From Candidatus Woesearchaeota archaeon (GTDB lineage Archaea; Nanobdellota; Nanobdellia; Woesearchaeales; GW2011-AR9), in assembly GCA_023265685.1 (NCBI GenBank), contig JAHFSP010000002.1, positions 5,713-69,712 on the forward strand: a DNA stretch of 64,000 bases. The letters are read 5' to 3'. Under the pieces are notes generated by a model. That model was not told where the DNA came from. It searched no databases and worked only from the letters and a program-made list of their open reading frames with translations. The position numbers and the translations under genes are program-made. Numbering within the stretch: the stretch's first letter is position 1; the number at the start of each line of letters is the position of its first letter. Shown here in pieces: positions 11,475-59,148 of this stretch.

Positions 11475-11562
11475 AAAGTTCAGCTATTTACCCATACACA
11501 TATAACTAGATCAAAATAGTTGAGAGATGAGAAGAGTGAGAGAGGATAGAAAGAGAGAAACC

Positions 11563-25868: not shown

Positions 25869-25876
25869 TTTATAAA
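25869..25876 (-). promoter_or_regulatory. TATA box (TTTATAAA) of the uL1-P0-P1 operon
   Basis: The octamer lies 72 nt upstream of the uL1 ATG. The leader ends in GGAGGTTTAA-ATG. Confidence 0.4.
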
Positions 25877-25968
25877 GGTTTCTGAACGAAGCTTCTACTG
25901 TAGTATCCTGAAATTATTTCGCCAACGGTTAATACTAAACCCAAAATAGGACTTGATTCGAGAATTAA

Positions 25969-41244: not shown

Positions 41245-41252
41245 TTTATAAA
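41245..41252 (-). promoter_or_regulatory. TATA box (TTTATAAA) of the grpE-dnaK-HD-dnaJ operon
   Basis: 22 nt separate the octamer from the grpE ATG (41222). Confidence 0.45.
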
Positions 41253-41272
41253 GATTTCGGAACCACGCTACA

Positions 41273-41814: not shown

Positions 41815-43263
41815 ATGCGTACGATAAAAGAGGCCGTAGTACTTCTTAGTTTGTTGCTTATCTTAATACAAGTGATACAGCTAGGTATCGTTTTTTCGCT
41901 GACTGGGGCGGCATCTACAGGGACAGTAGGACTCTGTTATAATCATGCCCCTACATTCCTTAATCTGAGTAACCACACCGTAGCACACAATTTTGAATAT
42001 GTTCGTACCATTACATTTAACGACACAAATGGAGATGCAGTAGCTATTTTTGATAATACTTCGCTCTTTTCCATAATAAATACAACAGGAGTTATCAATT
42101 TCACACCCACGATATCCCAGGTGGCAAATTATTCTATTCTGGTTACACTTCGAGATTATAACAGTTCTTGTCCACTCGAGGCATCAGAGGTATTTGTTCT
42201 TTCAATCAATAATAGTATCCCTCAGTTAAGCACGATCATTCCAAACCAAACTTGGGAAGAGGATGTTTCACTTAGTGGGTTAGATTTAGACAATTATTTT
42301 ACAGATTATGAAACAGATAGTGTCATTTATACGGTACGTTATGGTTCCAATGTACGTGTCTCCATAGCATCACCAAGCAATCTGGTAACTATTCGCCCAG
42401 ACCGGGATTTTTCGGGAACGAGTTGGATGCTCTTTACCGCGAATGACACTTTAGGATCAGTCACATCAAATAATGTTTCACTTAACATCACCGCCGTCGC
42501 TAATTATTGTGGGGATAGTGCTTGTAATGCAGATGAAAGCTGTACAAGCTGTTCCACAGATTGTGGGACTTGCCCAGCATCAAGTAGTAGCAGTAGTGGA
42601 GGTGGAGGTGGGGGCACAAGAATCATTGAGAAAATAATAAATAACACTGGAGGATGCGCGGATTCTTACCAGTGTTATGAGTGGTCACCTCAATCATGTG
42701 ATGTTGGAAACCAAGAAAGACGATGTATTTGGGTAGAAAAAAGTTGTACCGTTACTAAAACAATCGAAACAAGACCTTGTAAATGTATCCCTAACATTGT
42801 TTGTTCAGTTTGGGACCCTGAAGTGTGCTCTCCAGATCAAACTCAAATACGTACTTGTAACGATATCCATAATTGTGGAGCACCCGTTAGACTTTCTACT
42901 CAAAAGGAATGTTTGTTTGATGCCCTCAACCAAAGCAGCGGAATCTTCTCCAACGCTAATTCCCCACTGCCGGGAATCGTTGGTGCTGCTTATGCCAACC
43001 TCATTCCTCGTTTGTGGAGCGAATATAAGTCACAGGGTAGTTACCTAGTTCTCGTGCTTCTGCTCTGTGCAGTAATAGTCTGGTGGTTTTATCACAAGAG
43101 ATACTGTCTCACAATAGAAAGAATACCCCTCCCAATAGAAGAATACACTCTTGAGATAGAAACAATTGTGCAAACAGCATCGCTGCATCGGCTCAGAATT
43201 AGAACGCAATTTCGTTGTTCACTCAATAGCACGAAAGGAAAATATAGAAAAGTAATCAGGTGA
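41815..43263 (+). CDS. secreted Cys-rich surface protein with C-terminal TM anchor
   Basis: 482 aa with a signal-like N-terminus, Ig/cadherin-like sequon-rich repeats, the Cys knot YCGDSACNADESCTSCSTDCGTCP, an SSSSSSGGGGGG linker, further Cys modules and a TM helix (YLVLVLLLCAVIVWWFY). Confidence 0.55.
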   Translation: MRTIKEAVVLLSLLLILIQVIQLGIVFSLTGAASTGTVGLCYNHAPTFLNLSNHTVAHNFEYVRTITFNDTNGDAVAIFDNTSLFSIINTTGVINFTPTISQVANYSILVTLRDYNSSCPLEASEVFVLSINNSIPQLSTIIPNQTWEEDVSLSGLDLDNYFTDYETDSVIYTVRYGSNVRVSIASPSNLVTIRPDRDFSGTSWMLFTANDTLGSVTSNNVSLNITAVANYCGDSACNADESCTSCSTDCGTCPASSSSSSGGGGGGTRIIEKIINNTGGCADSYQCYEWSPQSCDVGNQERRCIWVEKSCTVTKTIETRPCKCIPNIVCSVWDPEVCSPDQTQIRTCNDIHNCGAPVRLSTQKECLFDALNQSSGIFSNANSPLPGIVGAAYANLIPRLWSEYKSQGSYLVLVLLLCAVIVWWFYHKRYCLTIERIPLPIEEYTLEIETIVQTASLHRLRIRTQFRCSLNSTKGKYRKVIR

Positions 43264-45675: not shown

Positions 45676-45772
45676 CGTCCCGGACGTGATTTGAACACGT
45701 GACCTGACGGTATCTTTTCACAGATACTGTGAGTAACAGCCGTCCGCTCTAACCGGGCTGAGCCACCGGGAC
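45676..45772 (-). tRNA. tRNA-Asn(GUU) with canonical 22-nt intron after position 37
   Basis: Hand fold: GTCCCGG/CCGGGAC acceptor plus discriminator G; D-arm GCTC-AGCCCGGTTA-GAGC; anticodon stem GACGG/CCGTC with loop CTGTTA-[CTCACAGTATCTGTGAAAAGAT]-A; T-arm ACGTG-TTCAAAT-CACGT. Oligo-T follows and there is no encoded CCA. Confidence 0.85.
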
Positions 45773-45798: not shown

Positions 45799-45806
45799 TT
45801 TATAAA
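45799..45806 (-). promoter_or_regulatory. TATA box (TTTATAAA) of tRNA-Asn
   Basis: 26 nt upstream of the tRNA 5' end (45772). Confidence 0.45.
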
Positions 45807-45812
45807 GATTTC

Positions 45813-47465: not shown

Positions 47466-50219
47466 TCAGGGAGATTTTGGTTGATATTTTTGATATGCTT
47501 CGAAAATACGTTCGACGTAGGGGTTCACATAATTTCCTTCAGCTACGGATTGTCCATTTTGTCCTTTGAACAGGTTTCTGTTCATCATTTGTTTAACATT
47601 CTCCCACGTTACAGGTTGTCCAGCTTGTTTTACTAAGTTGACATTGGCGAAAATTTTGCCTGATCCTCGGTTATGAGAAGCAATCGTTAATTTGACACGG
47701 TCATTGGGGGTTGCTGCATCAGGAAATCTCGCAAAGCTTTGTTTGGTAAGTCTGGCCATAGCATGAATATTTCTTTCAGAATCAAAACGGTCATCATATA
47801 GTGGATCTCCTTTTATAGGGCTGCATTGATACACGCCAGGTACCCAGATGTCTTTTCCTGCCTGAGCTCTTTCATTTTTGCAATGGTATTTCCCTTCGTT
47901 GGCGTCTACAACCGTACAGCATTGATGTACATTTGGAAAAATGTCTTTAAATGAATTATCGTTCGCCGTACTGAATATGAATTGTCCTAATCCTGCTGCT
48001 CCTGCCGTACTAATTTTCCACGGATTAAACGCAGATTCTTGTGAGCCTATTGCTTTCACTAACGCAGGGGAGACTTGTTCTTCTTGCGCATACTGATTGA
48101 ACCATCGATCATACTTCTCGTTTTCGATTATTGGATACAAGCTATACGAAGAGCCACTATCTTCTTGCGTTGCGCCTGGTGCTGCGGGCGGAGGATATAA
48201 TAGATCCCATGAGACAAATCCTGTTGTTGGATCGTACACGTATTCACCACCTTTAATGTAGGGAGAGACTTTTCTCCAGGCTTGATCGATTTGTGTGAGA
48301 CGAACAGAATATGACTTAGAGATGGACTCTGGCGGACCTGAAGGATCGGCTCTTCCACTTTCCGACATGTATCCTAATTCTGGGGAGCTGTAGTCTGGAG
48401 ATATTGACTCTGGTGAAAGAGGAAATTGAGGATTTTGGTTACCTGCCAATTTTTGTAATTCATAGTATACTTTCTTAGCCCATGACTTTCCCCCATCGTT
48501 ATCGAAATGAACAGCAGAGGGTGGAATAAGATGTTCGCGATCTTCTTGTGTTAACGCTTCGGCATCTATCAATGAACATTGAGTATTGATTATTTGTTTG
48601 AGTGCTGAATTTATTTCGTCTGGGTGTACTTTAGCACTACCGGTGACGGGGGCGCCAACCCAAATACATTTTGCATTATTAGTTGTAATTTTATTGATTA
48701 AAGAGAGAATATTGGCTCTTTGACCATTGACACCTTCCGTATTTAGGAAATTGGTCCCTAATGAAATGATAACGAGTTGCGGCCTTAATGAGGAGAGTTG
48801 CGTTTCAAAGTTGAAATCTCTCATGATTAGATTACTTGGAGATTGCTTATTTATTAGAACGAGAGAACCTGCAGGATTTGGTCCGGTAGATTTGCCATTA
48901 TTATCCCTTAACTCGTTACACACTTTATAGTTAACCTTATCAAAATTACTTGCTGCTGCTCCCCCACAGGCATAGGTTTGAACTTGAGAATTTTCTGAGA
49001 TTAATCGGTGTAATTCTTTACCATATGCTCCCACCGAATGAGAATCTCCGATGAGGAGGATGGGAGAAAGAAAAGTTTGAGTTGCATCACCACATTCAAA
49101 ATCAGCTGCGTCAATGTTGCCGTCTCCGTCGTCATCAACACTGTTGTTGCAGATTTCGTTTTCTAAACAGATTTGACCTTCGGGACCAAGTTGATATTCA
49201 CATTCTAAGTCTGCACAGTCGATGAGTCCGTCGTTGTTGTCATCTTCTTGGTTATTGCATATCTCTTTCTGATTACAATATGTTTTTTCATTACATTGAA
49301 AATCATCGCAATCAACGTGACCATCTTCATTATTGTCGAGACCATCATAGCAGGTTTCAGGGATATCTTGGGAGTTAATGCTAACAGGGATAGGGCATAT
49401 TGTGACTTCAGGTCCGCGTTGTCCTGCGCAGGATTCATCTTCACAATCAACTGTTCCATCACCGTTGTTATCTATACCATCTGCACAAGGAAATGTCAAA
49501 CCAGATTGATCAATAGCACTAAATTCAGGAAGATTATTTTTTGGTTGGGGAATTGCGGCAGGTTGGCCATCAACTTCTGATTCCACAGGTTCCGCCGCAA
49601 TAGGTACTACAGCTGGAGAGCTAGCCAGAGTACATATCTTTTCCCAGCCAGTGTTATCGAAAAAAAGTTTATTATCTTTTAATTCAGGTGTGTCGGTAAG
49701 GGTAATACCTGAGAATGTTCTTCCTTTAGAATCGCCAGTAGGTAAAATACAATTAAGCTTCAGGTGAGGATCAGTATATGACGACTCCCCATTATCAACG
49801 CGAGATATAACTCTTTCAGTCGTTATAACTCCATCTTTTATGAAGAACTTGTACGTGTGGTAATTGTAATCTTCTTGGCCAATCTTACATGTCACCCGGA
49901 GATCATAGATTTTGTAAATAGATCCCTCTTCATTTAGTTTATTACGCACGAAAGATATTCCTATTACCTCACCTGATGGGCATATAAAATTTACGTTACT
50001 ATAATCTTTTTTGCCAATTGATGAGCTGGTAGAAAAAATACCGTTAGTACTTGAGCACATAAAATTTAAACCATTAACATAATTTCCTGATTCTAATGAA
50101 ACCCGTACACCTACCAGGGGCTCTCCTTCTTCACAAGATACCCTTATTTGATCATCAGCAATAACTATTGACATTAAAAACAGAATTACAATGAGTACAA
50201 TAAGGTTGGTTTTTCTCAT
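47466..50219 (-). CDS. secreted multidomain protein: N-terminal beta-rich domain, 4x Cys/Asp (CxDGxDNxxDGxxDCxDxxC) repeats, SGNH esterase, SLT lytic transglycosylase
   Basis: 917 aa with signal peptide MRKTNLIVLIVILFLMSIVIADD. Repeats span residues about 245-376 (nt 49092-49487). SGNH blocks: LLIGDSHSVG, ACGG, SLGTN, DREH (nt 48450-49064). SLT motif GSQESAFNPWKISTAGAAGLGQF (nt 47640-48122; Glu codon at 48036-48038). Confidence 0.75.
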   Translation of the reverse strand: MRKTNLIVLIVILFLMSIVIADDQIRVSCEEGEPLVGVRVSLESGNYVNGLNFMCSSTNGIFSTSSSIGKKDYSNVNFICPSGEVIGISFVRNKLNEEGSIYKIYDLRVTCKIGQEDYNYHTYKFFIKDGVITTERVISRVDNGESSYTDPHLKLNCILPTGDSKGRTFSGITLTDTPELKDNKLFFDNTGWEKICTLASSPAVVPIAAEPVESEVDGQPAAIPQPKNNLPEFSAIDQSGLTFPCADGIDNNGDGTVDCEDESCAGQRGPEVTICPIPVSINSQDIPETCYDGLDNNEDGHVDCDDFQCNEKTYCNQKEICNNQEDDNNDGLIDCADLECEYQLGPEGQICLENEICNNSVDDDGDGNIDAADFECGDATQTFLSPILLIGDSHSVGAYGKELHRLISENSQVQTYACGGAAASNFDKVNYKVCNELRDNNGKSTGPNPAGSLVLINKQSPSNLIMRDFNFETQLSSLRPQLVIISLGTNFLNTEGVNGQRANILSLINKITTNNAKCIWVGAPVTGSAKVHPDEINSALKQIINTQCSLIDAEALTQEDREHLIPPSAVHFDNDGGKSWAKKVYYELQKLAGNQNPQFPLSPESISPDYSSPELGYMSESGRADPSGPPESISKSYSVRLTQIDQAWRKVSPYIKGGEYVYDPTTGFVSWDLLYPPPAAPGATQEDSGSSYSLYPIIENEKYDRWFNQYAQEEQVSPALVKAIGSQESAFNPWKISTAGAAGLGQFIFSTANDNSFKDIFPNVHQCCTVVDANEGKYHCKNERAQAGKDIWVPGVYQCSPIKGDPLYDDRFDSERNIHAMARLTKQSFARFPDAATPNDRVKLTIASHNRGSGKIFANVNLVKQAGQPVTWENVKQMMNRNLFKGQNGQSVAEGNYVNPYVERIFEAYQKYQPKSP

Positions 50220-50770
50220 CCGACATCAAACCTCTTGATGATAGTGACTTTTTTGTTGAGGAGTGGGTTTTCAACAATGATCTCGATTTGATATTGACCG
50301 ATTTGAGGATTGTTGCCGAGGGTGAAGTAATCAGCAAAGGCAACAGCTTGAGATTCTTTAGGGGATTCTTGGTGAAATGTGTAGGAGTTCTGCTGTTCTA
50401 AGTCGAGGATGATGTTACCTTCGGGATTGATGACACGATAATTACGTGCGATCATGATCTCGCCTTGGTAGACGCTGCTTTCTACTAAGAAGCGTAGATA
50501 GATGTTGTCGTCGCGTTGGAATAATTCTGTTTTGTTGTAGCAGTTAAATTTAGTGTCGACGTAATTACAAAGATCTACTTGTCGTATTTGAAGATCGCCG
50601 GTTCTCTCTAATGGAATAAATTCTGCATTGAGTACGTTGACTTGTTGTTCTTGCGCTTGGGGTGAAAGGACATCAAAATGGATGAGGAGGAGCATGATCG
50701 CTGTGGTGAGTGCGGCGACTCCTACGATGACGATTACTTGTAGCCAGACGGAACCTTTGGAATTGATCAT
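50216..50770 (-). CDS. small single-pass membrane protein
   Basis: 184 aa from MINSKGSVWLQVIVIVGVAALTTAIMLLLI. The ATG overlaps the upstream stop (ATGA 50767-50770) and its own stop overlaps the next ATG (ATGA 50216-50219). Confidence 0.5.
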   Translation of the reverse strand: MINSKGSVWLQVIVIVGVAALTTAIMLLLIHFDVLSPQAQEQQVNVLNAEFIPLERTGDLQIRQVDLCNYVDTKFNCYNKTELFQRDDNIYLRFLVESSVYQGEIMIARNYRVINPEGNIILDLEQQNSYTFHQESPKESQAVAFADYFTLGNNPQIGQYQIEIIVENPLLNKKVTIIKRFDVG

Positions 50771-53700
50771 GGGGAAGGGGTTGGAGTTGAAGCACATTTA
50801 GTGATAAGTTCATTACCAGATGGAATTATAAATGATGGATTCTGAATAACATTTGTTGCGATAGTACAACTTGAAGCAGTAGTAGTTGTAAGACATTTGT
50901 ATGCCCAGGTAGTATCTCCACTTATTCTTTTATCGAAACCTTGACTTGTACAATCACCTGAAGGGGGCGATGCTGGAGAAGGAGCTGTTGGGGAGGTAGA
51001 TGTATTACAAAGAACGAAAAGAGCATGATTAGCGGGGATAACGAAAACAGGGTTAGTTCTTCCTGTTTTAGTATTACACGCAGCGGCTTTATTGTCTACT
51101 TTACATTGATATATGTAATCATCATTAAGAATGCTTTTGTCATAGATTGTACTATCACATTTTCCTGCTAGTTCCCTCTTGGCACTTGCAAGAGTTCCAG
51201 CATTACAGTATAACCCTTTACCATCTGTAGTATCGCCATTAATCTTTTTATCGACTTCGCACAGATAGATAGATATTTTTTTGTAGTCAGTGGTGTCGGT
51301 GACGTCTGGGCCATACGCGGGAGCAGGTTGACCGGCGTAGTTACGTTGGCCTGCTTCTCCAAAGAAATATTTGAGCAGATTATTTAATTCTGTTTTATAG
51401 GCAGCGACATCATTCTTCTCGGTTTTGCCTTTCATGACAAAGGCAAGAGTGTCGTAATAGAGGGCGAGAGCGTTGGTCATATCATTGCCAAGCTCTTTGA
51501 AGACGCCTATGGCAATTTGATGAACGCGATTATAATTATCTTGCATGAAGACGTCATGAAGGCCGCCTACTTCAGCTACAGCAGTTGCGGTTTTTTGAAT
51601 ACGGACTTGTTGAACGTGACGATTTTTTCCGATCGCAGGGGGTTTGGCGATTTGAGTCGGAGTTGTACAGCCTCCCCCTTCATCATGTTCGTATAATTCA
51701 TAGACTACTTGGATTTCTTTACTATTAGCCTCATTCGCATACACACTTTTTTTGGCGACACGATAGGTACATTGTAATGGTTGTGTTCCTAATTCAGGAC
51801 GACCGATAGCATTAGATAGAGTGAATCCGTCGACGTTGAATGAGGCTTGGTTGGCTTGATCTACGGTTAATTCTTTGACATTGCTAAGAGCAAGGGATCC
51901 TGCGGAAACACTATAGCCTGCTTGAGTTGATTGAGGGGTGAGTGTTGCATCAGCAGGTACAGAGACAGTTACTTTGCCTGCACCGTTAGTGACAGGAGTG
52001 TAGCCAAAGAGGAATTCTGTTCCATCATGGACATCATCTGGAGTACCACTATAGGTGGGAGAGTTCGGACAGCCGTTATTACTTTGAGTTGTGCCTTTTC
52101 CTACGGTTTGAAGCAGATTTGAAACACCGCCAAACATCTCACTTCGTACGATTGCAATACTGTCTTCTTTTTTGAATGTGCCTTGGACATTATCAGGAAT
52201 AGGAAAGATTGCATCTTGGGAAACACCAGGAAGATTACGAATCGTGCGTTTAAGACACATGCCTTTGCCATTGAGAGCGAGATTGAGACGAACGCGAACA
52301 TCATCACCGAGGATAAATAGGTTAGGTGTTTGACAATTAACCCAGCGATCAGTTCTGGCGTCGTGACATTCCATGTAGGGTGATTCGATGGCTGCTTGAC
52401 CTGCACCAAATAAGTTGGAGAGTTCAGGACAATTATATCGCCCCGATACAGCATCAACACTACATGTGCCGACGAGTTCGGGAGTTGTGTCAGTGATAGG
52501 GAAATACCATACGCCTTTGCGACCTTGGGCTACTTCTTTATCAAAACATAACTCAGGGTTTTCGGCTGGATCTATTTCTACTTCAACTTTAACGTGATCG
52601 TAGCGGAAATGAGAATCGATACGTTGTGGCGTATCAATGGGTACACTAAACATACGACCGCTGGCGATACTCATGTCTGAGTGGATTATTTTCTCACGTT
52701 CGCCTGCGAATTCAGATTTGGGGTCAGCAAGTAAGCAATCACAGCCTTTGCCGTTACAAGATAAATCAACGCCATAAAATCCACGATCCTCTGGACCTAT
52801 ACATTTAAGCGAGGTTACGGCTCGGGTAATTTTACAGCCCGGCATAATGACTGCACCTATTTCGTAATTGTGAATGGCGGTTTGTCGAGCAGGATTAAAC
52901 GTACTTAACTCACGAAATGCTGGGGCAACAACAACTGAAGTGTGTGTTGGAAAAGCGTAGGCAGCATCAAGTAAAAAGTCTTTGGAGAAGAGCGGAAAAT
53001 CAAACCCAAATGCAGCCATACACATGGATTGCGCAAAACCTTGTGCACCACCCTGGAAATAGTTGTTAAGTTCGGCGTTACCATAATCTGCTTTGATATC
53101 ACTGACGCTTGATTGTAATGCATCCGTCATGCCCCGGGTCCCTTCTTTTACAATAACTCCAACATCCTCGAAGGCGCCACCTTTTCCAACGTCATCAAAG
53201 TTGGAAGGGGTACAACTATTCGAGAGCATTGACGCAATACCCTTGTAAACAAGGCCACAGACATTTTGCGTAAACCAGGTTTTACAGGCACCAGCGTCAT
53301 AGAGACCAGTATATTTAGCTTCGACTAAACAATTACGTAGACCGACGAGAATACTTTCAAGCATGACCATGTGTTTAAGAATGCCTGAGGTACACATTGT
53401 TTGAACAGACTCGATAAACCCGGCATGAGGATCAACTTTGGCAACTTTCTTTTCACCAGGCAGGTAATCTGTAACATAATCTTGACCGAAGGCTCCTGAG
53501 AGATCACGTCCACTGTAATAGCGAATCTCGGGGTAATAGGTTCCTACACGACCTTTGTTCTCTTTGTAGATACGTTCTTCACGATAGGACCATTTTTCTT
53601 CTACACCTTGTTTGAATTTGTTGGCTTCAACAGCTGTACGTAGGCTGCGATCGTCGTTGGAGTGGGTTTGTTTTGTGGGAGGAGTTCCCGTACAGACACA

Positions 53701-56700
53701 TTGATAAAATTCTGGTTCTCGGGTATCAGTATAACTTTGAATGAAACAATCTTTAGTATATCCGGCTGCATAACGGGGAGTCTCGTCCGTAGAACCTAAG
53801 ATTTTATCACTCTGATCGTAGAGTTGAGGAATTCCTTTATCATCGTTTTTTTCTTTGTAACAACCTTTACTAAAGTATCCTTTCTGTTTATCAAATTTGT
53901 ATTGGTCTGTAAATGCACCTTTGTAGGGGTCACTACATACTTCTTGACAGGTTACGTCTCTTCCAGCAATTAAGCCTTCTGAATCAGGGGGTTGATACAC
54001 TATTAGTGTGTCTTCTTGTGCTACAAGTCCACCCAATAGTTTGTTGGCAGGTCGTAAGTGAAAGATACCTCTTTTTGAATCGGCATTGAAATCAGGATTT
54101 GGATCCTTGTAATAGATGACATCACTTCCATCACCTTTCGTCCAACAGTTGCCTACATCTTTTGCATCAACAACAAGATGAGTAGCATCAGCTTTCAAAT
54201 GATCTTGACAGTTTTCTAATGGCTTGAGTGGCACACCTCGTCCGGTCACAGCACAAGAACTTTCAGCTTGAATGATTTTGGTAATGGCTTCTTCAGTCTT
54301 ATCTTCGGTCCAGCCGGCAGGAACAGCACGACAAAAAGCGCGATCACAGGTCCAGCGGTAGGCTTGATCTAGTGCAGCTTCGAATTTCCAGGCAGTTGCA
54401 GTGGAGTCGCATAGTTCATCGAGAGTGATGTCTTTTGTTTTGTCACCTTCAAGACCACCCGCATTAAATGCGTCAACAACTTTGCCTGGAAGCCAGGCCC
54501 CATATTGTGCAGGATCGGCCGTATACATTTCGTACCAATTTTCTAACGTGGAACGTAGATAGAGATTGTTTTGATTGATGGGACATTTGCCTGTTTCATC
54601 GAATGAGCCACCTTTTTGTTTTGCTTGATTCTGGGGTTTGGCAAATTCAAAATACGATTCAAGACGTGATGTTGCGACACGAATACCACGACTGACCCAG
54701 CGTCCTAAAAATGAGGCAATACAACTTACCCCGGTAATAATATAGGCAGTTTCAACATAGCCGCGTGCGGTTTGGAGCATGTCAATGGTTTTGTTGAGGG
54801 CAGCGACACCGTCGTTGGCAATGAAATCAGGAATGAGATCTTTACTTTCGAGGGGAATGTCAACAAAATAGCCAATATCTTGACACGAGGTTTGAGTTTT
54901 GGTTTGGCTCCATTGTTCTTCATTGGTATCAGGATTTTTGTTGCCACTTTTTTCTTGATATTCAATAGTTACTTTGAGAGGAAACACGATTTGACGTTTT
55001 TTAAAGTCATTCCAGAATTTGTCTTCTTTTTTACTGAATTTTGAGGCACCAATTAATGTCCACGTTGCGTAGACGGCATCGGGGCCTAAAATCGGACGAG
55101 TGGATCCCGGAAGAAGTTGACAACCGATGCCAAAGCGAGTGTCATCTTTCATGGCTTGAGTACAGGCAGGTTCAATACGTACATTGGTAATTTTGTAATT
55201 GCGATCATATTGGTTTCCAGATGCGTCAAGCGTTGGTGTACCTTGCCCGAGATAATTAAATTTGAAAACGGTTTGAATTTCCTGACGGCCGTCGTCAAGT
55301 AGAGTAGGGTTAAGACGATATGGCTGTTGAAACTTCGCCATGTTCTCAAGACCAAATGCAAGATCACCTGAGGAACAGGAATTAACATTGACGGTGCGTT
55401 GCCAACCAACACTTTTGCCGCTACTGTCTTCAGCGATGATGTAGACAAAATAGGTTACTTGTTGTTGCGCGGCAAGTTGTTCTTGAATTGGAAAAATGGA
55501 GACTTGGGCAAGTTCAGAAGGCACTTGACGCGGGGTTAATTTTTTCGTAGTGAGTTGAGAACGTAGTGATAATGAGAAGTCTACATCTTTAAAGCGAAAT
55601 GATCCATTCTGATCTGCGGTGACAACAGTCACAGCACGACTAAAGTCCGGTGTGTATTGTTGGCCTTCGGGACGGTAAATGTACAAATAGACTTTGGCAC
55701 CGCTTTCTGTTTCTCCGGAGATGGATGATTCGGCTCTGGTTTCATAATATTGATAGCCTTTTTCAATTTCAGCACGTAGGGTGGGTACTTGGATATCGGC
55801 TTTGAGGTTGAGGATTTTTTCTGTGACCCACCCAGCACGATCGGTTGCACGTATGATTAAAGCGTTTTGACCTTCTTGAAGATCAACTGACAGGGAGAAT
55901 GGTTGTGCGGCGTCAAGGTTTTCTTGTTGTTCTACAGAGCGATTATTGACGAAGACTTCGATGCTCGAATTTTCACTTAGAGACCCATTAAGAATGAGTT
56001 GTTTGTCCCCGATTAATTCTGGAACTGGAAGGAGAGTAATTTGCGGTTTGTGAGAATCAGCATAGACGATACTTGTCGTGTTGGCAGTATTGCCGAAAGA
56101 ATCAGTTGCTTGGACGAAAATGAGGTTGTCTTTTTCTTCATCGAGATGAACATTGGTTACGACGAATGTACCATCGGCAGTTTGAGGAGTTGGTCCTTTG
56201 GCTTGAGCGTTGGCGCCAAGATGCCCATTGACGAGGACTTTGATGGCAGCACCATTTTCAGCTGTGCCATTAAATGATAAGGAAGTGCCTTGGATAATTG
56301 CAGGAATGGTAAGAGTTACTGATGAGGTTGCGATGTCGGGGGCAAGAGTTTGAAATGAATAGAATGAACCTTGGGCGTCATCGATAATAGGACCGCTTTG
56401 AACTTTGAATTGATACGTGGTTTGGGGATCGAGATTAGGAAGAATGAGTTGATGTGTGGTGACGGCGTCAGCGTCTCCTTTTCGGATGAATTGAGGTTGG
56501 TTTGTGGGAGGGGTGGGATTTTGAGGTGAATTTGCAAGAGGGTTCGTCGTGTCGGTTTGTGAAGATGCCGCTGGAGCATATTCAATAAAGCTATCAGCAG
56601 GAGTATCAGTTTGCCAAGTTACCGTTGCACTGTTTTGAGTCACGTCTTGAGTGGTAACACCTGATATTTCAAGAGCAGTAACAACTGAAGTATTAATGAG

Positions 56701-56844
56701 AATTGCAAGCATACACACAGCGATAATTTTCCAGAGTAGGCCGTGTTGGGAGTTATGTTGAGAGTTAGATTGTGAGGGATCAGGCCGAGTAGTGTTATGT
56801 TGTGTGCGTTTATTTTGTGCTTTATTGGGAGTTGTTGGAATCAT
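50767..56844 (-). CDS. giant (2025 aa) Cys-rich membrane/surface protein, orphan
   Basis: Uninterrupted 6-kb ORF. N-terminal TM/signal (LLWKIIAVCMLAILINTSVVTA), an Fn3-like domain (ATVTWQTDTPADSFIEYA...TTYQFKVQS) and Ig-like repeats. More than 1500 aa of Cys-rich sequence follow without a motif I recognise. One internal hydrophobic segment (AYIITGVSCIASFLGRWVS). Two C-terminal 4-Cys modules. Confidence 0.75.
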   Translation of the reverse strand: MIPTTPNKAQNKRTQHNTTRPDPSQSNSQHNSQHGLLWKIIAVCMLAILINTSVVTALEISGVTTQDVTQNSATVTWQTDTPADSFIEYAPAASSQTDTTNPLANSPQNPTPPTNQPQFIRKGDADAVTTHQLILPNLDPQTTYQFKVQSGPIIDDAQGSFYSFQTLAPDIATSSVTLTIPAIIQGTSLSFNGTAENGAAIKVLVNGHLGANAQAKGPTPQTADGTFVVTNVHLDEEKDNLIFVQATDSFGNTANTTSIVYADSHKPQITLLPVPELIGDKQLILNGSLSENSSIEVFVNNRSVEQQENLDAAQPFSLSVDLQEGQNALIIRATDRAGWVTEKILNLKADIQVPTLRAEIEKGYQYYETRAESSISGETESGAKVYLYIYRPEGQQYTPDFSRAVTVVTADQNGSFRFKDVDFSLSLRSQLTTKKLTPRQVPSELAQVSIFPIQEQLAAQQQVTYFVYIIAEDSSGKSVGWQRTVNVNSCSSGDLAFGLENMAKFQQPYRLNPTLLDDGRQEIQTVFKFNYLGQGTPTLDASGNQYDRNYKITNVRIEPACTQAMKDDTRFGIGCQLLPGSTRPILGPDAVYATWTLIGASKFSKKEDKFWNDFKKRQIVFPLKVTIEYQEKSGNKNPDTNEEQWSQTKTQTSCQDIGYFVDIPLESKDLIPDFIANDGVAALNKTIDMLQTARGYVETAYIITGVSCIASFLGRWVSRGIRVATSRLESYFEFAKPQNQAKQKGGSFDETGKCPINQNNLYLRSTLENWYEMYTADPAQYGAWLPGKVVDAFNAGGLEGDKTKDITLDELCDSTATAWKFEAALDQAYRWTCDRAFCRAVPAGWTEDKTEEAITKIIQAESSCAVTGRGVPLKPLENCQDHLKADATHLVVDAKDVGNCWTKGDGSDVIYYKDPNPDFNADSKRGIFHLRPANKLLGGLVAQEDTLIVYQPPDSEGLIAGRDVTCQEVCSDPYKGAFTDQYKFDKQKGYFSKGCYKEKNDDKGIPQLYDQSDKILGSTDETPRYAAGYTKDCFIQSYTDTREPEFYQCVCTGTPPTKQTHSNDDRSLRTAVEANKFKQGVEEKWSYREERIYKENKGRVGTYYPEIRYYSGRDLSGAFGQDYVTDYLPGEKKVAKVDPHAGFIESVQTMCTSGILKHMVMLESILVGLRNCLVEAKYTGLYDAGACKTWFTQNVCGLVYKGIASMLSNSCTPSNFDDVGKGGAFEDVGVIVKEGTRGMTDALQSSVSDIKADYGNAELNNYFQGGAQGFAQSMCMAAFGFDFPLFSKDFLLDAAYAFPTHTSVVVAPAFRELSTFNPARQTAIHNYEIGAVIMPGCKITRAVTSLKCIGPEDRGFYGVDLSCNGKGCDCLLADPKSEFAGEREKIIHSDMSIASGRMFSVPIDTPQRIDSHFRYDHVKVEVEIDPAENPELCFDKEVAQGRKGVWYFPITDTTPELVGTCSVDAVSGRYNCPELSNLFGAGQAAIESPYMECHDARTDRWVNCQTPNLFILGDDVRVRLNLALNGKGMCLKRTIRNLPGVSQDAIFPIPDNVQGTFKKEDSIAIVRSEMFGGVSNLLQTVGKGTTQSNNGCPNSPTYSGTPDDVHDGTEFLFGYTPVTNGAGKVTVSVPADATLTPQSTQAGYSVSAGSLALSNVKELTVDQANQASFNVDGFTLSNAIGRPELGTQPLQCTYRVAKKSVYANEANSKEIQVVYELYEHDEGGGCTTPTQIAKPPAIGKNRHVQQVRIQKTATAVAEVGGLHDVFMQDNYNRVHQIAIGVFKELGNDMTNALALYYDTLAFVMKGKTEKNDVAAYKTELNNLLKYFFGEAGQRNYAGQPAPAYGPDVTDTTDYKKISIYLCEVDKKINGDTTDGKGLYCNAGTLASAKRELAGKCDSTIYDKSILNDDYIYQCKVDNKAAACNTKTGRTNPVFVIPANHALFVLCNTSTSPTAPSPASPPSGDCTSQGFDKRISGDTTWAYKCLTTTTASSCTIATNVIQNPSFIIPSGNELITKCASTPTPSP

Positions 56845-58931
56845 GAGATCAACTCCGGAGCTGGAATGGCGAGACTATCTTGATCAAGCTTGGTCATCAG
56901 ATTAATAACTCCTGTATTGGAAGTGTCAGTAGGAACTAATGTGTGAATCACAATTTTGTGTGTGTTTTCGAGCTGATTCCAGACAACTGTCCAGTTGCCT
57001 TTGTAGCCGCCGATGACTTCTCCTCCCCCCTCATCACTGATACCGCCTTTGAGCAAGAGAACTTCTAGTGGATAGGTAAAGTCAGCTTGAGCGAGAAATT
57101 GGAGTTCTTGTTTTTGGCTGATTTCAGGGTCAAGGCTTGATGAGATGATTGTTTTTACGTCATGGAAATGGGATGAGAATGGATCGCGAGAGGTCATGTT
57201 ACCATCATAATAAAATGAGATAAATGCAGTAACATCGTCAGAGAGTTTTTGAGCAGGCCCAATTTGGGAAGAGGAGGTGAATTGGTGTGTTACTATTTCA
57301 ACATTGGATAGGGGGAATGCCTCAAGAGGGATTAATTCTAATTCTACCTCACCGTCGGGGTTGCTGACGACGCGTTTCCAGTCTTCTTTGTAGCCGTCTT
57401 TACTTGCGCGAACAATGGCACCTCCACAGAGTGGAACGTTGGTACGAGTTGCTGCAACATCACCCATGCCGGCAAAATCATATTGGGTTTGCGCGATTGC
57501 ATCACATTGATATTGTAAACAATTGTAGGAAATATCTGCACCCTCTAGAGGAGTACGGGAATAGACACCTTCATTGTTATTGACTAATTGATAGGTTTTG
57601 AATGTAAATGGAACTGTTCCTGCTTGACAGAATTGATCATTATCGTAGGTGCCAAATACAACCGCTGTTCCTTGATGAGGCGTGTCTTTGCGATTGGGGA
57701 TGTTATGGTGTAGATGAACCGTAAATGAACTTTTGAAGTCGTATCCAGTTGTTTCATCATGAACTCGTACCACGACGGGAAAGCTTACATCGTAGGTAAA
57801 TTTCCACGACTGCATACAGAAGAAAGAGAGTAGAGAATTGTGCTGTCCAAAAGAATTACTGCGTAACGCATTACCACTACGTGGGCTCACATCAAACGTA
57901 AATGGATAATTGTCATCAAATGTGAAGACAACGGAGAGTTCATCGCCATACGATACATCATCGCCAAGGTTCCAGAAATAATGATTTTGATAATAAGGGA
58001 GATCTGCAGGGTATTGGTTGATGTTGGTGCCTTTCACTTTCAGTTGTGCAAGATTAACGCGCAAAAGGTCTTTGAGGGTTTGTTTGACTTTGTCAAGCGG
58101 CCAGCGTTTGGGAGCACAACTGACTTCAAATCCGGCAACAGGTAAATCTTTATGCTCTAATGCGATGAGATCTTGGGTAAGATCTTCTAGTTTGAGGTCA
58201 CGTAGTTCAACATCGAGAATTCGACGAGAGAGGTCGTAGGCATGTTTGAGTTTGATGTCTGATTCAGCAACATGATTTGCAACTTCGGTTACAATCTCGC
58301 CGTTTTTGTCTTTAACGAGAAGATCCCAATGGACATTGAAAATGATTTTACTTTCGACGATTTCAGTGTTGCCAGTAATGGGACTGCGTTCTTCGACATC
58401 GTAGGAATCTAGTTTTCCTAATTCAAAGACGCAATTATGTAATTTTTGTTCAAGTTCATGATCCAGTTGGGTTTTGATGTCTTCAAGGCTGGGGTAAAGA
58501 GTGTTTTCACCATACGCCCAATAGGGAAGATCTGAAACGGGAGAGGTTTGTAAGTATAGATTAGCGTTATCTGCAATCTGGGAAGGAATGGTGAGATAAC
58601 CTCCTTGTTGACCAAGGGTGCGTACAGCATTTTCTCCGACGTTAGTAATACAAGAAGTGATAAGTTGTTCGATACGATTTTTTTCGGTGGGGATGATTTC
58701 TCCAGGTTTGAATGTGACCACTTGGGTTTTGATAGCGATAATAAGAATGATGGAGAGTAACGCAACAATTCCTAAGATGATGAAAATGGTGACTTGACCA
58801 CGGCGAGTGGGTATTGTGGTGAGAGAGGGTATTGTGGGAGGTATTGGAGAATGCGAGTTGGGATTAGAGTGAGCTGATAATTGAACAGAGGACGGACTAC
58901 TACGGACACGATCAAACCTCTTTTGTAACAT
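56841..58931 (-). CDS. 696-aa protein with archaeal class III (type IV pilin-like) signal motif
   Basis: TRRG-QVTIFIILGIVALLSIILIIAI (residues 42-67) fits [KR]-G-[Q]-hydrophobic. No motif was recognised in the rest. Its stop overlaps the ATG of the giant gene (ATGA 56841-56844). Confidence 0.65.
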   Translation of the reverse strand: MLQKRFDRVRSSPSSVQLSAHSNPNSHSPIPPTIPSLTTIPTRRGQVTIFIILGIVALLSIILIIAIKTQVVTFKPGEIIPTEKNRIEQLITSCITNVGENAVRTLGQQGGYLTIPSQIADNANLYLQTSPVSDLPYWAYGENTLYPSLEDIKTQLDHELEQKLHNCVFELGKLDSYDVEERSPITGNTEIVESKIIFNVHWDLLVKDKNGEIVTEVANHVAESDIKLKHAYDLSRRILDVELRDLKLEDLTQDLIALEHKDLPVAGFEVSCAPKRWPLDKVKQTLKDLLRVNLAQLKVKGTNINQYPADLPYYQNHYFWNLGDDVSYGDELSVVFTFDDNYPFTFDVSPRSGNALRSNSFGQHNSLLSFFCMQSWKFTYDVSFPVVVRVHDETTGYDFKSSFTVHLHHNIPNRKDTPHQGTAVVFGTYDNDQFCQAGTVPFTFKTYQLVNNNEGVYSRTPLEGADISYNCLQYQCDAIAQTQYDFAGMGDVAATRTNVPLCGGAIVRASKDGYKEDWKRVVSNPDGEVELELIPLEAFPLSNVEIVTHQFTSSSQIGPAQKLSDDVTAFISFYYDGNMTSRDPFSSHFHDVKTIISSSLDPEISQKQELQFLAQADFTYPLEVLLLKGGISDEGGGEVIGGYKGNWTVVWNQLENTHKIVIHTLVPTDTSNTGVINLMTKLDQDSLAIPAPELIS

Positions 58932-58953
58932 CGAGATTATGATAGCAAGATGA

Positions 58954-58961
58954 TTTATAAA
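58954..58961 (-). promoter_or_regulatory. TATA box (TTTATAAA) of the four-gene surface operon
   Basis: 22 nt separate the octamer from ATG 58931, the same spacing as at grpE, serS, 19214 and 41303. This implies a leaderless transcript. Confidence 0.45.
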
Positions 58962-59148
58962 GCTTATGCTCTTTCACCGACTGTAAAAGTAGGTGTGGTT
59001 TAGGGCATTTGACGATTGCGTTTCACGCCACCTAAGAATATGAGGAAAAATTGCATTTAACGAGATAGTCTTAGTGATTTAGGAGAGGTTTAATGGTAAA
59101 AATAGATAGAAATAATAGAGATTTTGTTAAACTAGACATTTTGTTAAA

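What the first reader, a model, noticed from the sequence alone, without database searches (positions are those of the whole stretch)
47466..58961. Four ATGA-coupled genes (pilin-signal protein, 2025-aa Cys-rich giant, small TM protein, secreted SGNH+SLT enzyme): candidate undescribed archaeal surface system for attachment and cell-wall breaching
Seen in the sequence: four minus-strand ORFs occupy 11.5 kb. Every junction is a 4-nt ATGA stop/start overlap (56841-56844, 50767-50770, 50216-50219). A single TATA octamer sits 22 nt upstream of the first ATG, so I read this as one translationally coupled unit. All four products begin with a hydrophobic export or anchor segment. Gene 1 has an archaeal class III signal-like RRG-QVTIF motif. 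Gene 2 is a 2025-aa Cys-rich protein with Fn3/Ig-like N-terminal domains. Gene 4 ends in a clear SLT lytic-transglycosylase motif preceded by SGNH esterase blocks. Established: SLT family 1 enzymes cleave the MurNAc-GlcNAc bond of bacterial murein, and archaea do not make murein. Inference: the locus builds an extracellular structure that contacts and locally opens the wall of a bacterial partner or prey, or serves another non-self polymer. No secretion ATPase, platform protein, prepilin peptidase or T4SS/T6SS component is in the window, so it does not match any system I know. fpg and an 84-aa zinc-knuckle gene follow at 8-bp and 33-bp spacing and may be co-transcribed passengers.
Basis: partly seen in the sequence, partly recalled or inferred. 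Interest (0 to 1): 0.85.

Follow-up and report, generated by a model that had tools for sequence, protein, structure and literature searches.

The report
Archaeal surface operon with swappable wall-cutters
A tightly packed four-gene operon, conserved across hundreds of Woesearchaeota (tiny DPANN archaea), encodes two pilin-like anchored proteins, a giant cysteine-rich secreted protein of unknown fold, and an exchangeable enzyme that cuts bacterial cell wall, and so is a concrete candidate for the machinery these archaea use on bacteria.

Summary
Four minus-strand genes (696, 2025, 184 and 917 aa) are joined by ATGA overlaps behind one canonical archaeal promoter. The contig is an ordinary Woesearchaeal chromosome.

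- Gene 1 is followed by gene 2 in 76 of 76 related loci. At least 372 species-level genomes encode a gene 1 relative.
- Gene 3 follows in 50 of 63 loci. Its N-terminus looks like a type IV pilin: G/A at -1 in 53/53 and Glu at +5 in 35/53.
- The fourth position is hypervariable. It holds SLT, amidase, M15, M23, M74, glucosaminidase, SleB-like, phage-tail lysozyme, DUF2272 and SGNH domains in different genomes.
- Nearly all fourth-position proteins share a newly noticed ~55-aa module, "EIDxVW".
- In a divergent clade the giant protein itself carries SLT or NlpC/P60 at its C-terminus.
- Genes 1, 2 and 3 match no Pfam family. The gene 1 model and the gene 2 core model match no solved or viral structure convincingly.

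Only the SLT proteins had been reported before (Castelle 2021).

Best reading: a pilin-anchored surface complex that displays an exchangeable murein hydrolase against bacterial walls. Function is inferred, not shown.

The parts
58954..58962 (-). Promoter: TATA box CTTTATAAA preceded by a GCATAAG BRE-like stretch. It starts about 30 nt before the g1 ATG, which implies a leaderless or very short-leader mRNA.
   Evidence: only copy within the operon; the box is at exactly -30 in about 55 homologous loci.
56841..58931 (-). g1: 696-aa membrane-anchored ectoprotein. Leader aa 1-45 ends in RRG. It is followed by the invariant Q46-V-T-I-F-I-I-L-G and a hydrophobic helix (aa 46-70), which together look like a class III signal. 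The ectodomain has an alpha/beta part (aa 83-330), several beta-sandwich domains (aa 332-696) and 8 invariant Cys.
58722..58796 (-). g1 conserved QVTIFIILG motif plus hydrophobic helix (aa 46-70), lying directly after the putative prepilin-peptidase site G45|Q46.
   Evidence: Q46, T48, F50, I51, I52 and G54 invariant in 35 sequences; the divergent clade has a short leader, M-x-KKRG|QIT-FII.
50767..56844 (-). g2: 2025-aa secreted giant. It has a Sec-type signal (probable cleavage after A57) and Fn3 plus Ig-like domains (aa 58-480). A Cys-rich core of unknown fold spans aa 481 to about 1900, with about 40 invariant Cys and long helices. There is no C-terminal anchor.
53236..53433 (-). The most conserved segment of g2 (aa 1138-1203): DPH..C.SGI...LESIL.GLRNCL.EAK.TG..DAG.CKT.FTQ.VCGLVYK. 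The ~1000-aa g2-like paralogues of the divergent clade share it.
   Evidence: conservation profile. (hhalign E 1.2e-4, probability 55%).
50216..50770 (-). g3: 184-aa type IV pilin-like protein. Short leader MINSKG, then SVWLQ and a hydrophobic helix of about 20 residues, then a beta-rich domain of about 140 aa with one conserved Cys pair. The family has Glu at +5; the window has Gln.
47466..50219 (-). g4: 917-aa secreted multi-domain murein hydrolase, the occupant of the variable fourth position.
49080..49490 (-). g4 aa 244-380: four acidic double-disulfide repeats (DNNGDG..DC.D..C) that look like Ca-binding sites.
   Evidence: NF033662, E 8.6e-22, 4 stretches. (EF-hand-like alignment); found only in the window's version among the loci.
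48420..49073 (-). g4 aa 383-600: SGNH/GDSL esterase-like domain (GDSH at 391, GTNF at 488, VHF at 570).
   Evidence: weak hit, below cut-off. (12 fourth-position homologues match, best E 2.6e-18)..
48156..48326 (-). g4 aa 632-688: the "EIDxVW" module (..QIDQAW..(~20)..VYD...G.VSW..LYP). Fourth-position proteins share it whatever their catalytic domains. It is a candidate docking or glycan-binding module.
47469..48122 (-). g4 aa 700-917: SLT (GH23) lytic transglycosylase domain. The catalytic Glu is E728 (nt 48036-48038), within QESAF. Further motifs are GAAGLGQ, DDRFDSERNI and ASHNRG.

Best explanation
The operon encodes a cell-surface complex of Woesearchaeales archaea that presents an exchangeable murein (peptidoglycan) hydrolase to bacterial cell walls.

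Proposed mechanism:
1. One strong, canonical, leaderless-type promoter drives g1-g4, and the genes are translationally coupled. This is shown by sequence and its conservation.
2. g1 and g3 insert in the membrane through class III (type IV pilin-like) N-termini. A prepilin peptidase encoded elsewhere probably processes them. They form the anchor, stalk or short pilus-like base (inferred).
3. g2 is exported by Sec and has no anchor of its own, so g1 and/or g3 hold it. Its Fn3/Ig array and its disulfide-rich core of unknown fold form the distal, target-contacting body (inferred).
4. The fourth-position enzyme is exported by Sec and joins the complex through its conserved ~55-aa EIDxVW module. In lineages without a separate fourth gene, the hydrolase is fused to the C-terminus of g2 instead. 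The fusions are shown; the docking role of the module is inferred.
5. In this window the SGNH esterase would remove O-acetyl groups from MurNAc. These groups block lytic transglycosylases. The SLT domain would then cleave the glycan strands and open the sacculus locally. This step rests on established enzymology of the Ape/LT families and was not tested here.

The rapid swapping of hydrolase classes between close relatives fits adaptation to different bacterial wall chemistries, that is, to different partners or prey.
For: Conservation. At least 372 species-level genomes, all labelled Woesearchaeota or Nanoarchaeota (or, implausibly, 'uncultured Methanosarcinales'), encode a g1 relative. g1 is followed by g2 in 76/76 loci, g3 follows in 50/63, and a module-bearing enzyme follows g3 in 42/46. 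The g2 family has 422 clusters at 50% identity. The promoter box sits at -30 in about 55 loci. A 4-nt overlap is the commonest junction.

Export and anchoring. Each product has a single N-terminal hydrophobic segment. g1 carries the invariant [KR][GA]|Q-x-T-x-F-I-I-x-G, with short canonical leaders in the divergent clade. g3 has G/A at -1 in 53/53 and Glu at +5 in 35/53.

Murein as target. SLT matches above the Pfam cut-off and its catalytic motifs are conserved. Among 46 fourth-position proteins, Pfam finds SLT in 10, Amidase_2 in 6, DUF2272 in 6, Peptidase_M15_4 in 3, Phage_lysozyme2 in 3, Polysacc_deac_1 in 2, M23 in 2, Glucosaminidase in 2, Hydrolase_2 in 2, M74 in 1 and SGNH in 12.

Physical link between g2 and the hydrolase. 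g2 homologues are fused to SLT (L079; 2 of 22 long homologues) and to NlpC/P60 (L083).

Cassette behaviour. Pairs of loci with g1 identity of 0.8 or more have a median fourth-position identity of 0.24. For example, L018 against L062 gives g1 0.94, g2 0.94 and fourth position 0.13.

Shared module. It occurs only in fourth-position proteins, at variable positions within them, and in no other ORF of the flanks.

Not mobile or viral. The chromosomal neighbourhood is conserved and no relative was found in IMG/VR.

Literature. SLT proteins of these lineages have already been proposed to bind or degrade bacterial walls (PMC8204110, PMC9723730).
Against: - No experiment, expression data or imaging supports any step.
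- No prepilin peptidase, pilus ATPase or platform protein was found among the window ORFs scanned.
- No pilin HMM matches g1 or g3.
- In the window, the g1 leader is 45 aa, which is long for a class III signal. g3 has Gln rather than Glu at +5 and often Lys or Arg at +1.
- The g2 core model is only moderately confident (pLDDT 68). No interaction between the four proteins was modelled.
- The docking role of the EIDxVW module rests on its distribution alone. It could equally be a glycan-binding module.
- 3 of the 20 fourth-position proteins scanned individually have no recognisable domain. Some carry only esterase or phosphoesterase domains.
- Nothing here separates attack on living bacteria from feeding on wall debris.
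Confidence: 0.6

Rival explanations
1. Necromass feeding. The same surface complex is a "murein-osome", analogous to a cellulosome. It digests free peptidoglycan debris so the archaeon can take up amino sugars and amino acids. No living host is contacted.
For: The complex displays only wall-degrading enzymes. Some fourth-position proteins combine two or three murein-active domains, as expected for digestion. Published speculation holds that DPANN use peptidoglycan of dead cells as an amino acid source (PMC11537232).
Against: Each genome carries only one, rarely two, fourth-position proteins next to g1-g3, rather than a battery. No muropeptide transporter or downstream catabolic gene is linked. 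Swapping of enzyme classes between close relatives resembles host-range or arms-race loci more than a nutritional pathway. No cohesin or dockerin families were found.
Confidence: 0.2
2. g1 and g2 form the main two-component envelope (S-layer) of Woesearchaeales, with a membrane anchor and a large canopy as in SlaB/SlaA of Sulfolobales. The hydrolase is only an accessory enzyme hung on it.
For: The best Foldseek match of the g1 model is SlaB (8qox_B, E 5.6e-5, probability 0.98). An anchor gene lies next to a very large secreted protein gene. The operon is near-universal, sits at one conserved chromosomal position and has a very strong canonical promoter.
Against: The TM-scores to SlaB are only 0.12-0.17, and the other hits are generic Ig or cadherin folds. 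The g1 anchor is N-terminal and pilin-like, whereas SlaB has a C-terminal anchor. The g2 core matches no solved structure. g2 is Cys-rich and far better conserved (36-66% identity) than is usual for S-layer proteins. A pilin-like g3 and a hypervariable hydrolase coupled to S-layer genes have no precedent. Some lineages have a second g1'-g2' pair in tandem.
Confidence: 0.15
3. The enzymes act on the archaeon's own wall (autolysins for growth or division), and g1-g3 are their regulators or scaffold.
For: Lytic transglycosylases and amidases serve this role in bacteria. The operon behaves like a core housekeeping locus.
Against: Archaea do not make murein (established knowledge). Enzymes that remodel the cell's own wall should match one wall chemistry and be conserved. 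Here glycosidases, amidases and several endopeptidase classes replace one another between close relatives. Phage-tail lysozyme-type domains also occur.
Confidence: 0.03

Closest known systems
Bacterial type IV pilus tip complexes (minor pilins plus the large non-pilin PilY1/PilC), and the type IV pili that Saccharibacteria use to bind host bacteria (PMC9894109, PMC12206443)
   Same: Small and large proteins with pilin-type N-termini are encoded together with a large Sec-exported non-pilin protein in one tight operon. The presumed role is contact with another cell's surface, carried out by an ultrasmall episymbiont.
   Different: No sequence or fold similarity to PilY1 or to known pilins. No assembly ATPase, platform or peptidase nearby. 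A murein hydrolase is an integral, exchangeable component. The organism is an archaeon.
Large extracellular SLT-domain proteins of Woesearchaeota and Pacearchaeota (fam00969, Castelle et al. 2021, PMC8204110; GH23 genes in Vigneron et al. 2022, PMC9723730)
   Same: g4 and the g2-SLT fusions very probably belong to this reported family. The proposed role, binding or degrading bacterial walls, is the same.
   Different: Those papers describe single proteins. They do not describe the conserved g1-g2-g3 partners, the pilin-like signals, the exchange of SLT for other murein hydrolase classes, the shared EIDxVW module or the fusions.
Polymorphic toxin/effector loci (conserved delivery part plus variable enzymatic cargo)
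   Same: The apparatus genes are conserved and sit beside a hypervariable enzyme cassette that carries a conserved short module. Cassettes are replaced between close relatives.
   Different: No known trafficking domain, no immunity gene and no T6SS, T7SS or CDI machinery. The shared module lies at variable positions, not at a fixed terminus. An archaeon without murein needs no immunity to these enzymes.
SlaA/SlaB two-component S-layer of Sulfolobales
   Same: A membrane anchor gene and a giant secreted protein gene are adjacent. The beta-sandwich stalk domains of g1 resemble SlaB locally.
   Different: Anchor topology, Cys content, conservation level and the extra pilin-like and hydrolase genes all differ. 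The g2 core matches no solved structure.
Cell-wall-opening hydrolases of envelope-spanning machines (VirB1/PrgK/TcpG of type IV secretion, phage tail-tip lysins)
   Same: A lytic transglycosylase or other lysin is coupled to a structure that must pass or touch peptidoglycan. Phage_lysozyme2, a phage tail lysozyme domain, occurs among the fourth-position proteins.
   Different: No T4SS ATPases or channel proteins, and no phage genes. No relatives in viral contigs and no BFVD match.

Membership tests
Type IV pilin-like proteins (class III signal peptide) | Short basic leader ending in G/A, followed at once by a hydrophobic helix of about 20 residues | tested here: met
   g3: K/R/Q at -2 and G/A at -1 in 53/53, with a 4-7 aa leader from the family start. 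g1: invariant [KR][GA]|QVT-FIILG. The leader is 4-8 aa in the divergent clade, but 18-57 aa in Woesearchaeales and 45 aa in the window.
Type IV pilin-like proteins (class III signal peptide) | Glu at +5 of the mature protein (bacterial-type pilins) | tested here: inconclusive
   g3 family: Glu in 35/53 and Gln in 8/53. The window has Gln. g1 has Phe at +5. Archaeal pilins do not require Glu at +5 (own knowledge).
Type IV pilin-like proteins (class III signal peptide) | Match to a curated pilin or class III signal profile | tested here: not met
   No Pfam or NCBIfam pilin family matched g1, g3 or eight g3 homologues, even at E up to 5.
Type IV pilus / archaeal pilus operon | Prepilin peptidase, assembly ATPase and membrane platform encoded with the pilins | tested here: not met
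   None found among 34 window ORFs scanned with Pfam, nor in the +/-10 kb flanks of related loci. The rest of the genome could not be searched.
SLT / GH23 family 1 lytic transglycosylase | Profile match above the curated threshold | tested here: met
   PF01464, 44 bits against a cut-off of 21.3, E 1.9e-11, g4 aa 707-756. Partial matches to MltF, MltC and Slt70 models.
SLT / GH23 family 1 lytic transglycosylase | Catalytic Glu in the E-S motif, plus motifs II (G..GLMQ), III and IV (AYNxG) | tested here: met
   E728-S in QESAF, GAAGLGQ, DDRFDSERNI and ASHNRG (Tyr replaced by His). The motifs are conserved across fourth-position SLT homologues.
SLT / GH23 family 1 lytic transglycosylase | Cleavage of the MurNAc-GlcNAc bond with 1,6-anhydro product | not testable with these tools
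   Needs an enzyme assay on sacculi.
SGNH/GDSL esterase (O-acetyl-peptidoglycan esterase-like) | Profile match and blocks I (GDS), III (GxN) and V (His) | tested here: inconclusive
   Window: PF13472 at 21.4 bits, below the cut-off of 32.9. GDSH 391, GTNF 488 and VHF 570 are present, but there is no Asp at -3 of the His. 12 fourth-position homologues match, best E 2.6e-18. Substrate unknown.
SlaA/SlaB-type two-component S-layer | SlaB-like stalk (beta-sandwiches, coiled coil, C-terminal anchor) and a SlaA-like canopy fold | tested here: not met
   Only local beta-sandwich similarity (8qox_B, TM 0.12-0.17). The g1 anchor is N-terminal. The g2 core has no PDB match below E 0.1.
Polymorphic toxin systems | Known trafficking domain, variable toxin, adjacent immunity gene and a dedicated secretion system | tested here: not met
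   A variable enzyme with a shared module is present. No known trafficking domain, immunity gene or secretion system was found.
Cellulosome-type enzyme display | Cohesin and dockerin modules | tested here: not met
   No cohesin or dockerin Pfam hits in g2 or in 46 fourth-position proteins. The EIDxVW module matches nothing in the PDB. The acidic Ca-type repeats occur only in the window's g4.
Type IV secretion / conjugation with VirB1-like hydrolase | VirB4/VirD4 ATPases and channel components in the locus | tested here: not met
   Absent from the window ORFs scanned and from related loci.

The most novel reading that the evidence does not exclude
g1-g2-g3 form a previously unseen host-contact organelle. 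It would be the lineage-defining device by which Woesearchaeales, and with fused variants related Nanoarchaeota, attach to living bacteria and locally open their sacculus. The exchangeable fourth-position hydrolase, docked through the EIDxVW module, would set which bacterial wall chemotypes, and therefore which hosts, can be used. This would be the first molecular machinery for a cross-domain association of an archaeon on a bacterium.
Probability: 0.35. Interest if true: 0.9.

Novelty: categorically new. Interest (0 to 1): 0.8.

Why it matters
Woesearchaeales are among the most abundant and diverse uncultured archaea. Their hosts and way of life are an open question. The only molecular hint so far was that some genomes encode SLT-domain proteins.

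This analysis turns that hint into a defined locus. It has conserved partners, a recognisable promoter, a marker module for its cargo, and cargo diversity that should track the wall chemistry of the target.

That makes several things directly testable:
- localisation of g1-g3 by cryo-ET, immunogold or proteomics;
- enzyme specificity of the fourth-position cassettes;
- prediction of host range from the cassette type;
- whether archaea in general have evolved dedicated weaponry or tools against bacterial peptidoglycan.

g1 and the g2 core are also large protein families with no informative match to a solved or viral structure. g1 has relatives in at least 372 species, and g2 has 422 clusters at 50% identity.

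Tried and rejected
**Family and structure searches that found nothing useful**
- Pfam and NCBIfam on g1 and g3 gave nothing.
- PDB sequence-profile searches with g1, g2 and the EIDxVW module gave nothing significant.
- Foldseek of the g1 model against the PDB returned only generic beta-sandwich hits. The SlaB hit was rejected as evidence of homology because the TM-scores are 0.12-0.17.
- Foldseek of the g2 core against the PDB and BFVD gave no hit below E 0.04.

**Hypotheses rejected**
- A viral or mobile origin. There are no relatives in IMG/VR and the locus sits in a fixed chromosomal neighbourhood.
- A chimeric or bacterial contig. The flanking genes are archaeal and the synteny is conserved.
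- The acidic double-disulfide repeats as the general docking device. They occur only in the window's g4.
- g3 co-varying with the fourth-position protein. One pair suggested it, but others did not.

**Searches that did not work as planned**
- The sigma-70 promoter and terminator scan gave no more sites than shuffled sequence and is not applicable to archaea.
- The second and third homologue searches with g2 returned few sequences because of the word prefilter.
- A profile search of the representative library failed because the profile was too long. It was rerun with a single sequence.
- One literature search with badly chosen terms was uninformative.
- Searches for any description of the operon found only the SLT reports.

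Full report
**1. Observation**

| Gene | Coordinates | Length |
|---|---|---|
| g1 | 56841-58931 | 696 aa |
| g2 | 50767-56844 | 2025 aa |
| g3 | 50216-50770 | 184 aa |
| g4 | 47466-50219 | 917 aa |

All three junctions are ATGA overlaps. A CTTTATAAA box lies at 58954-58962 and is the only copy in the 11.5 kb. Three of the other four matches to CTTTATAWA in the window lie within about 80 nt upstream of a minus-strand gene: an intron-containing tRNA, the 188-aa ORF upstream of dnaK, and the ribosomal L1 operon. It is therefore this organism's canonical promoter.

Each product has a single N-terminal hydrophobic segment. g2 has 49 Cys and g4 has 28.

Pfam results:
- g2: Fn3/Pur_ac_phosph_N and Big_13/Big_6 in the N-terminal quarter.
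- g4: SLT, E 1.9e-11, above the curated cut-off.
- g4: a weak SGNH hit. The GDSH, GTNF and VHF blocks are visible in the sequence.

NCBIfam adds four acidic double-disulfide repeats in g4. fpg follows g4 after 8 nt and an 84-aa ORF follows fpg after 33 nt.

**2. Organism and contig integrity**

Homologues of g1 come only from Woesearchaeota and Nanoarchaeota MAGs. The window also encodes ribosomal L1 and L10/P0 with the archaeal insert, PAC2, TrmB, TruD, DnaK/DnaJ, SerRS, CysRS and MetK. It also has the bacterial-type TGT and QueA already noted in these archaea (PMC8204110). A tRNA found by Rfam but not by ARAGORN probably carries an intron.

The neighbourhood PAC2-g1-g2-g3-g4-fpg recurs in independent assemblies. 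One is a 1.47-Mb contig of the nearest relative. The contig is not chimeric. No relative occurs in IMG/VR viral contigs.

**3. Conservation of the unit**

A scan of one genome per GTDB species found at least 372 genomes with a g1 relative, and 80 loci were fetched. I called ORFs and used HMMs built from my own alignments:
- g2 follows g1 in 76 of 76 loci that have downstream DNA.
- g3 follows g2 in 50 of 63.
- A further plus-strand gene follows g3, most often with a 4-nt overlap.

A near-invariant promoter (CATAAsCTTTATAwA) starts exactly 30 nt before the g1 ATG in about 55 loci. This validates the start codon and implies a leaderless or short-leader transcript. A phmmer scan of 1.84 billion cluster representatives found 422 g2-like clusters, 182 of them at E of 1e-30 or below.

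**4. The four proteins**

*g1.* The family has 8 invariant Cys and an invariant N-terminal motif, [KR][GA]|Q-V-T-x-F-I-I-x-G. In a divergent clade the leader is a canonical 4-8 residues, M-x-KKRG|QIT-FII. In Woesearchaeales it is 18-57 residues. The motif fits the archaeal class III (prepilin-like) signal pattern and resembles haloarchaeal archaellin N-termini; this comparison is from my own knowledge.

AlphaFold2 gave a confident model (pLDDT 82). It shows an N-terminal helix, an alpha/beta region and several beta-sandwiches. Foldseek against the PDB returned SlaB of Sulfolobus first (E 5.6e-5), but with TM-scores of 0.12-0.17. The remaining hits were cadherins, cytokine receptors and teneurins, which are generic beta-sandwich similarity.

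*g3.* Its family shows G/A at -1 in 53/53, K/R/Q at -2 and Glu at +5 in 35/53 (Gln in 8, including the window). A hydrophobic helix of about 20 residues and a small beta-rich domain follow. This is the hallmark of a type IV pilin, although no curated pilin profile matches.

*g2.* It has a Sec-type signal (...VVTA|LEIS) followed by Fn3 and Ig-like domains. A core of about 1400 aa has about 40 invariant Cys. The core model is moderately confident (pLDDT 68) and contains very long helices. It matches nothing in the PDB or BFVD.

*g4.* It has a Sec signal, an unknown N-terminal domain, four acidic Ca-type repeats, an SGNH-like esterase, a short conserved module and a C-terminal SLT domain. The SLT domain has the catalytic Glu (E728) and family motifs II-IV.

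**5. The fourth position is a variable murein-hydrolase cassette**

Pfam on 46 proteins taken from the position after g3 found the families below. The protein-by-protein scan of 20 of them is.

| Pfam family | Proteins (of 46) |
|---|---|
| Lipase_GDSL_2 (SGNH) | 12 |
| FGE-sulfatase-like | 12 |
| SLT | 10 |
| Amidase_2 | 6 |
| DUF2272 | 6 |
| Peptidase_M15_4 | 3 |
| Phage_lysozyme2 | 3 |
| Exo_endo_phos | 3 |
| Metallophos | 3 |
| Polysacc_deac_1 | 2 |
| Peptidase_M23 | 2 |
| Glucosaminidase | 2 |
| Hydrolase_2 (SleB-like) | 2 |
| Peptidase_M74 | 1 |

These enzymes attack the glycan strand, the amide link and the peptide cross-links of bacterial murein. The common denominator of the cassette is therefore true peptidoglycan.

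Pairs of loci with g1 identity of 0.8 or more have a median fourth-position identity of only 0.24. For example, L018 against L062 gives g1 0.94, g2 0.94 and fourth position 0.13. The cassette is evidently replaced between close relatives.

**6. A shared module marks the cargo**

The fourth-position proteins share a ~55-aa module, C..QRC.EID.VW..(~20)..VWD...G.W....YP. It sits at variable positions, near the N-terminus, in the middle or late in the protein, and is independent of the catalytic domains present. An HMM of the module hits a downstream ORF in 42 of 46 loci with enough sequence, and no other ORF in any flank. In the window it lies at g4 aa 632-688, between the SGNH and SLT domains. 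It matches nothing in the PDB. I read it as a docking or targeting module. A glycan-binding role is equally open.

**7. Natural fusions**

In a divergent clade that lacks a detectable g3 or a separate enzyme gene, the g2 homologue itself ends in a murein hydrolase domain:
- SLT in L079 (E 3.4e-9).
- NlpC/P60 in L083 (E 2.6e-15).
- SLT in 2 of 22 other long g2 homologues.

This is Rosetta-stone evidence that g2 and the hydrolase act as one physical unit.

The same clade often has a second pair in tandem: a g1 paralogue followed by a ~1000-aa secreted Cys-rich protein. That protein shares with g2 its most conserved Cys-helix segment (hhalign E 1.2e-4). The basic unit is therefore a g1-like anchor plus a g2-like giant.

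**8. Mechanism**

*Shown:* co-transcription signals, tight coupling, conservation of gene order, export signals, catalytic motifs, cassette variability and fusions.

*Inferred:*
- g1 and g3 are processed like prepilins and form the membrane-bound base.
- g2 is held by them and forms the distal body.
- The enzyme docks through the module.
- The complex acts on bacterial sacculi.

In the window's g4, pairing an SGNH esterase with SLT makes biochemical sense. O-acetylation of MurNAc C6 blocks lytic transglycosylases, and Ape-type SGNH esterases remove it. This is established enzymology and was not tested here.

Whether the target is a living partner or prey, or wall debris, is unresolved. Cassette swapping and the single enzyme per locus favour the former.

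**9. Comparison with known systems and the literature**

Castelle et al. 2021 reported a family of large SLT-domain proteins (fam00969). They placed it in a module of 51 mostly unknown families specific to Woesearchaeota and Pacearchaeota. Vigneron et al. 2022 noted GH23 genes in Woesearchaeotal MAGs. Strock et al. 2025 surveyed archaeal peptidoglycan hydrolases. None of them describes the operon, the pilin-like partners, the cassette behaviour, the module or the fusions. Further searches found nothing else.

The locus works somewhat like a type IV pilus tip-adhesin operon, a polymorphic effector locus or a cellulosome. It fails the defining features of each, and of SlaA/SlaB S-layers and T4SS (see the membership table).

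**10. Verdict**

The apparatus (g1-g3 plus the cargo module) appears to be undescribed and lies outside known system types. Its function remains an inference. Interest is 0.8.

Noticed in passing
window 45676-45772 (-): A 97-nt tRNA found by Rfam (53 bits) but missed by ARAGORN, so it probably contains an archaeal intron. A canonical CTTTATAAA box lies just upstream at 45799-45807.
   Followed up: partly
window 29872-34944 (+), with 29346-29885 (+) overlapping its start: A second giant ORF (1690 aa) with two Laminin_G_3/ConA-like lectin domains and an Ig-like domain. It has low Cys content (0.4%) and no obvious N-terminal signal at the called start. A 179-aa ORF with a weak HTH hit overlaps its start. 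It is possibly another surface adhesin.
   Followed up: partly
window 41815-43263 (+): A 482-aa secreted protein with 4.8% Cys and a weak Big_9 Ig-like hit. This is another Cys-rich extracellular protein in the same genome.
   Followed up: no
window 10341-11474 (+) and 11527-12558 (+): Bacterial-type queuosine genes (TGT E 2e-129, QueA E 1e-92) lie side by side in an archaeal chromosome. This agrees with the report of queuosine synthesis in DPANN (PMC8204110).
   Followed up: partly
window 25869-25877, 41245-41253, 45799-45807, 58954-58962 (all -): The same 9-mer, CTTTATAAA, precedes the L1 ribosomal operon, the 188-aa ORF upstream of dnaK, a tRNA and g1. The distance to the start is about 30 nt for the 188-aa ORF and for g1, which suggests leaderless transcripts.
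   Followed up: partly
window 49080-49490 (-), g4 aa 244-380: Four acidic double-disulfide repeats (NF033662, E 8.6e-22) that align with EF-hand Ca sites. Among about 80 related loci they occur only in this window's g4.
   Followed up: partly
L068, L070, L074, L078, L080, L081, L082 (about 2-10 kb upstream of g1): The divergent clade has a tandem second set: a g1 paralogue, a ~1000-aa Cys-rich secreted protein, a 400-860-aa protein and a ~260-aa membrane protein. The g1-g2 pair follows, in some loci followed by another ~270-aa membrane protein. None of these proteins has a Pfam match.
   Followed up: partly
L075 4904-9271 (+): A 1455-aa protein with a Peptidase_M23 domain lies just upstream of g1 in a locus that lacks g3 and a fourth-position gene. 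The murein hydrolase may sit at a different position in this lineage.
   Followed up: no
L002 5417-8632 (+): An extra 1071-aa g1 paralogue (MYKRG|QVTVFVIVG) lies upstream of PAC2. In the same locus the fourth-position protein is only 367 aa, has no Pfam domain, and is followed directly by enolase.
   Followed up: no
fourth-position proteins of L009-L012, L018, L019, L021, L022, L025, L027: An FGE-sulfatase-like (C-type-lectin-like) domain occurs in 12 of 46 fourth-position proteins, usually next to a murein hydrolase domain. Exo_endo_phos, Metallophos, DUF218 and Lipase_3 domains also occur. The cargo may therefore also target teichoic acids or lipids.
   Followed up: no
L018 vs L062/L051: g1 and g2 are 91-94% identical, but g3 drops to 57-58% and the fourth-position protein to 13%. 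This suggests a recombination breakpoint within or before g3.
   Followed up: partly
record titles of many loci: Many MAGs that carry this Woesearchaeal operon are deposited as "uncultured Methanosarcinales archaeon" (binchicken/SPIRE-type assemblies). This looks like a placeholder or a mislabel.
   Followed up: no
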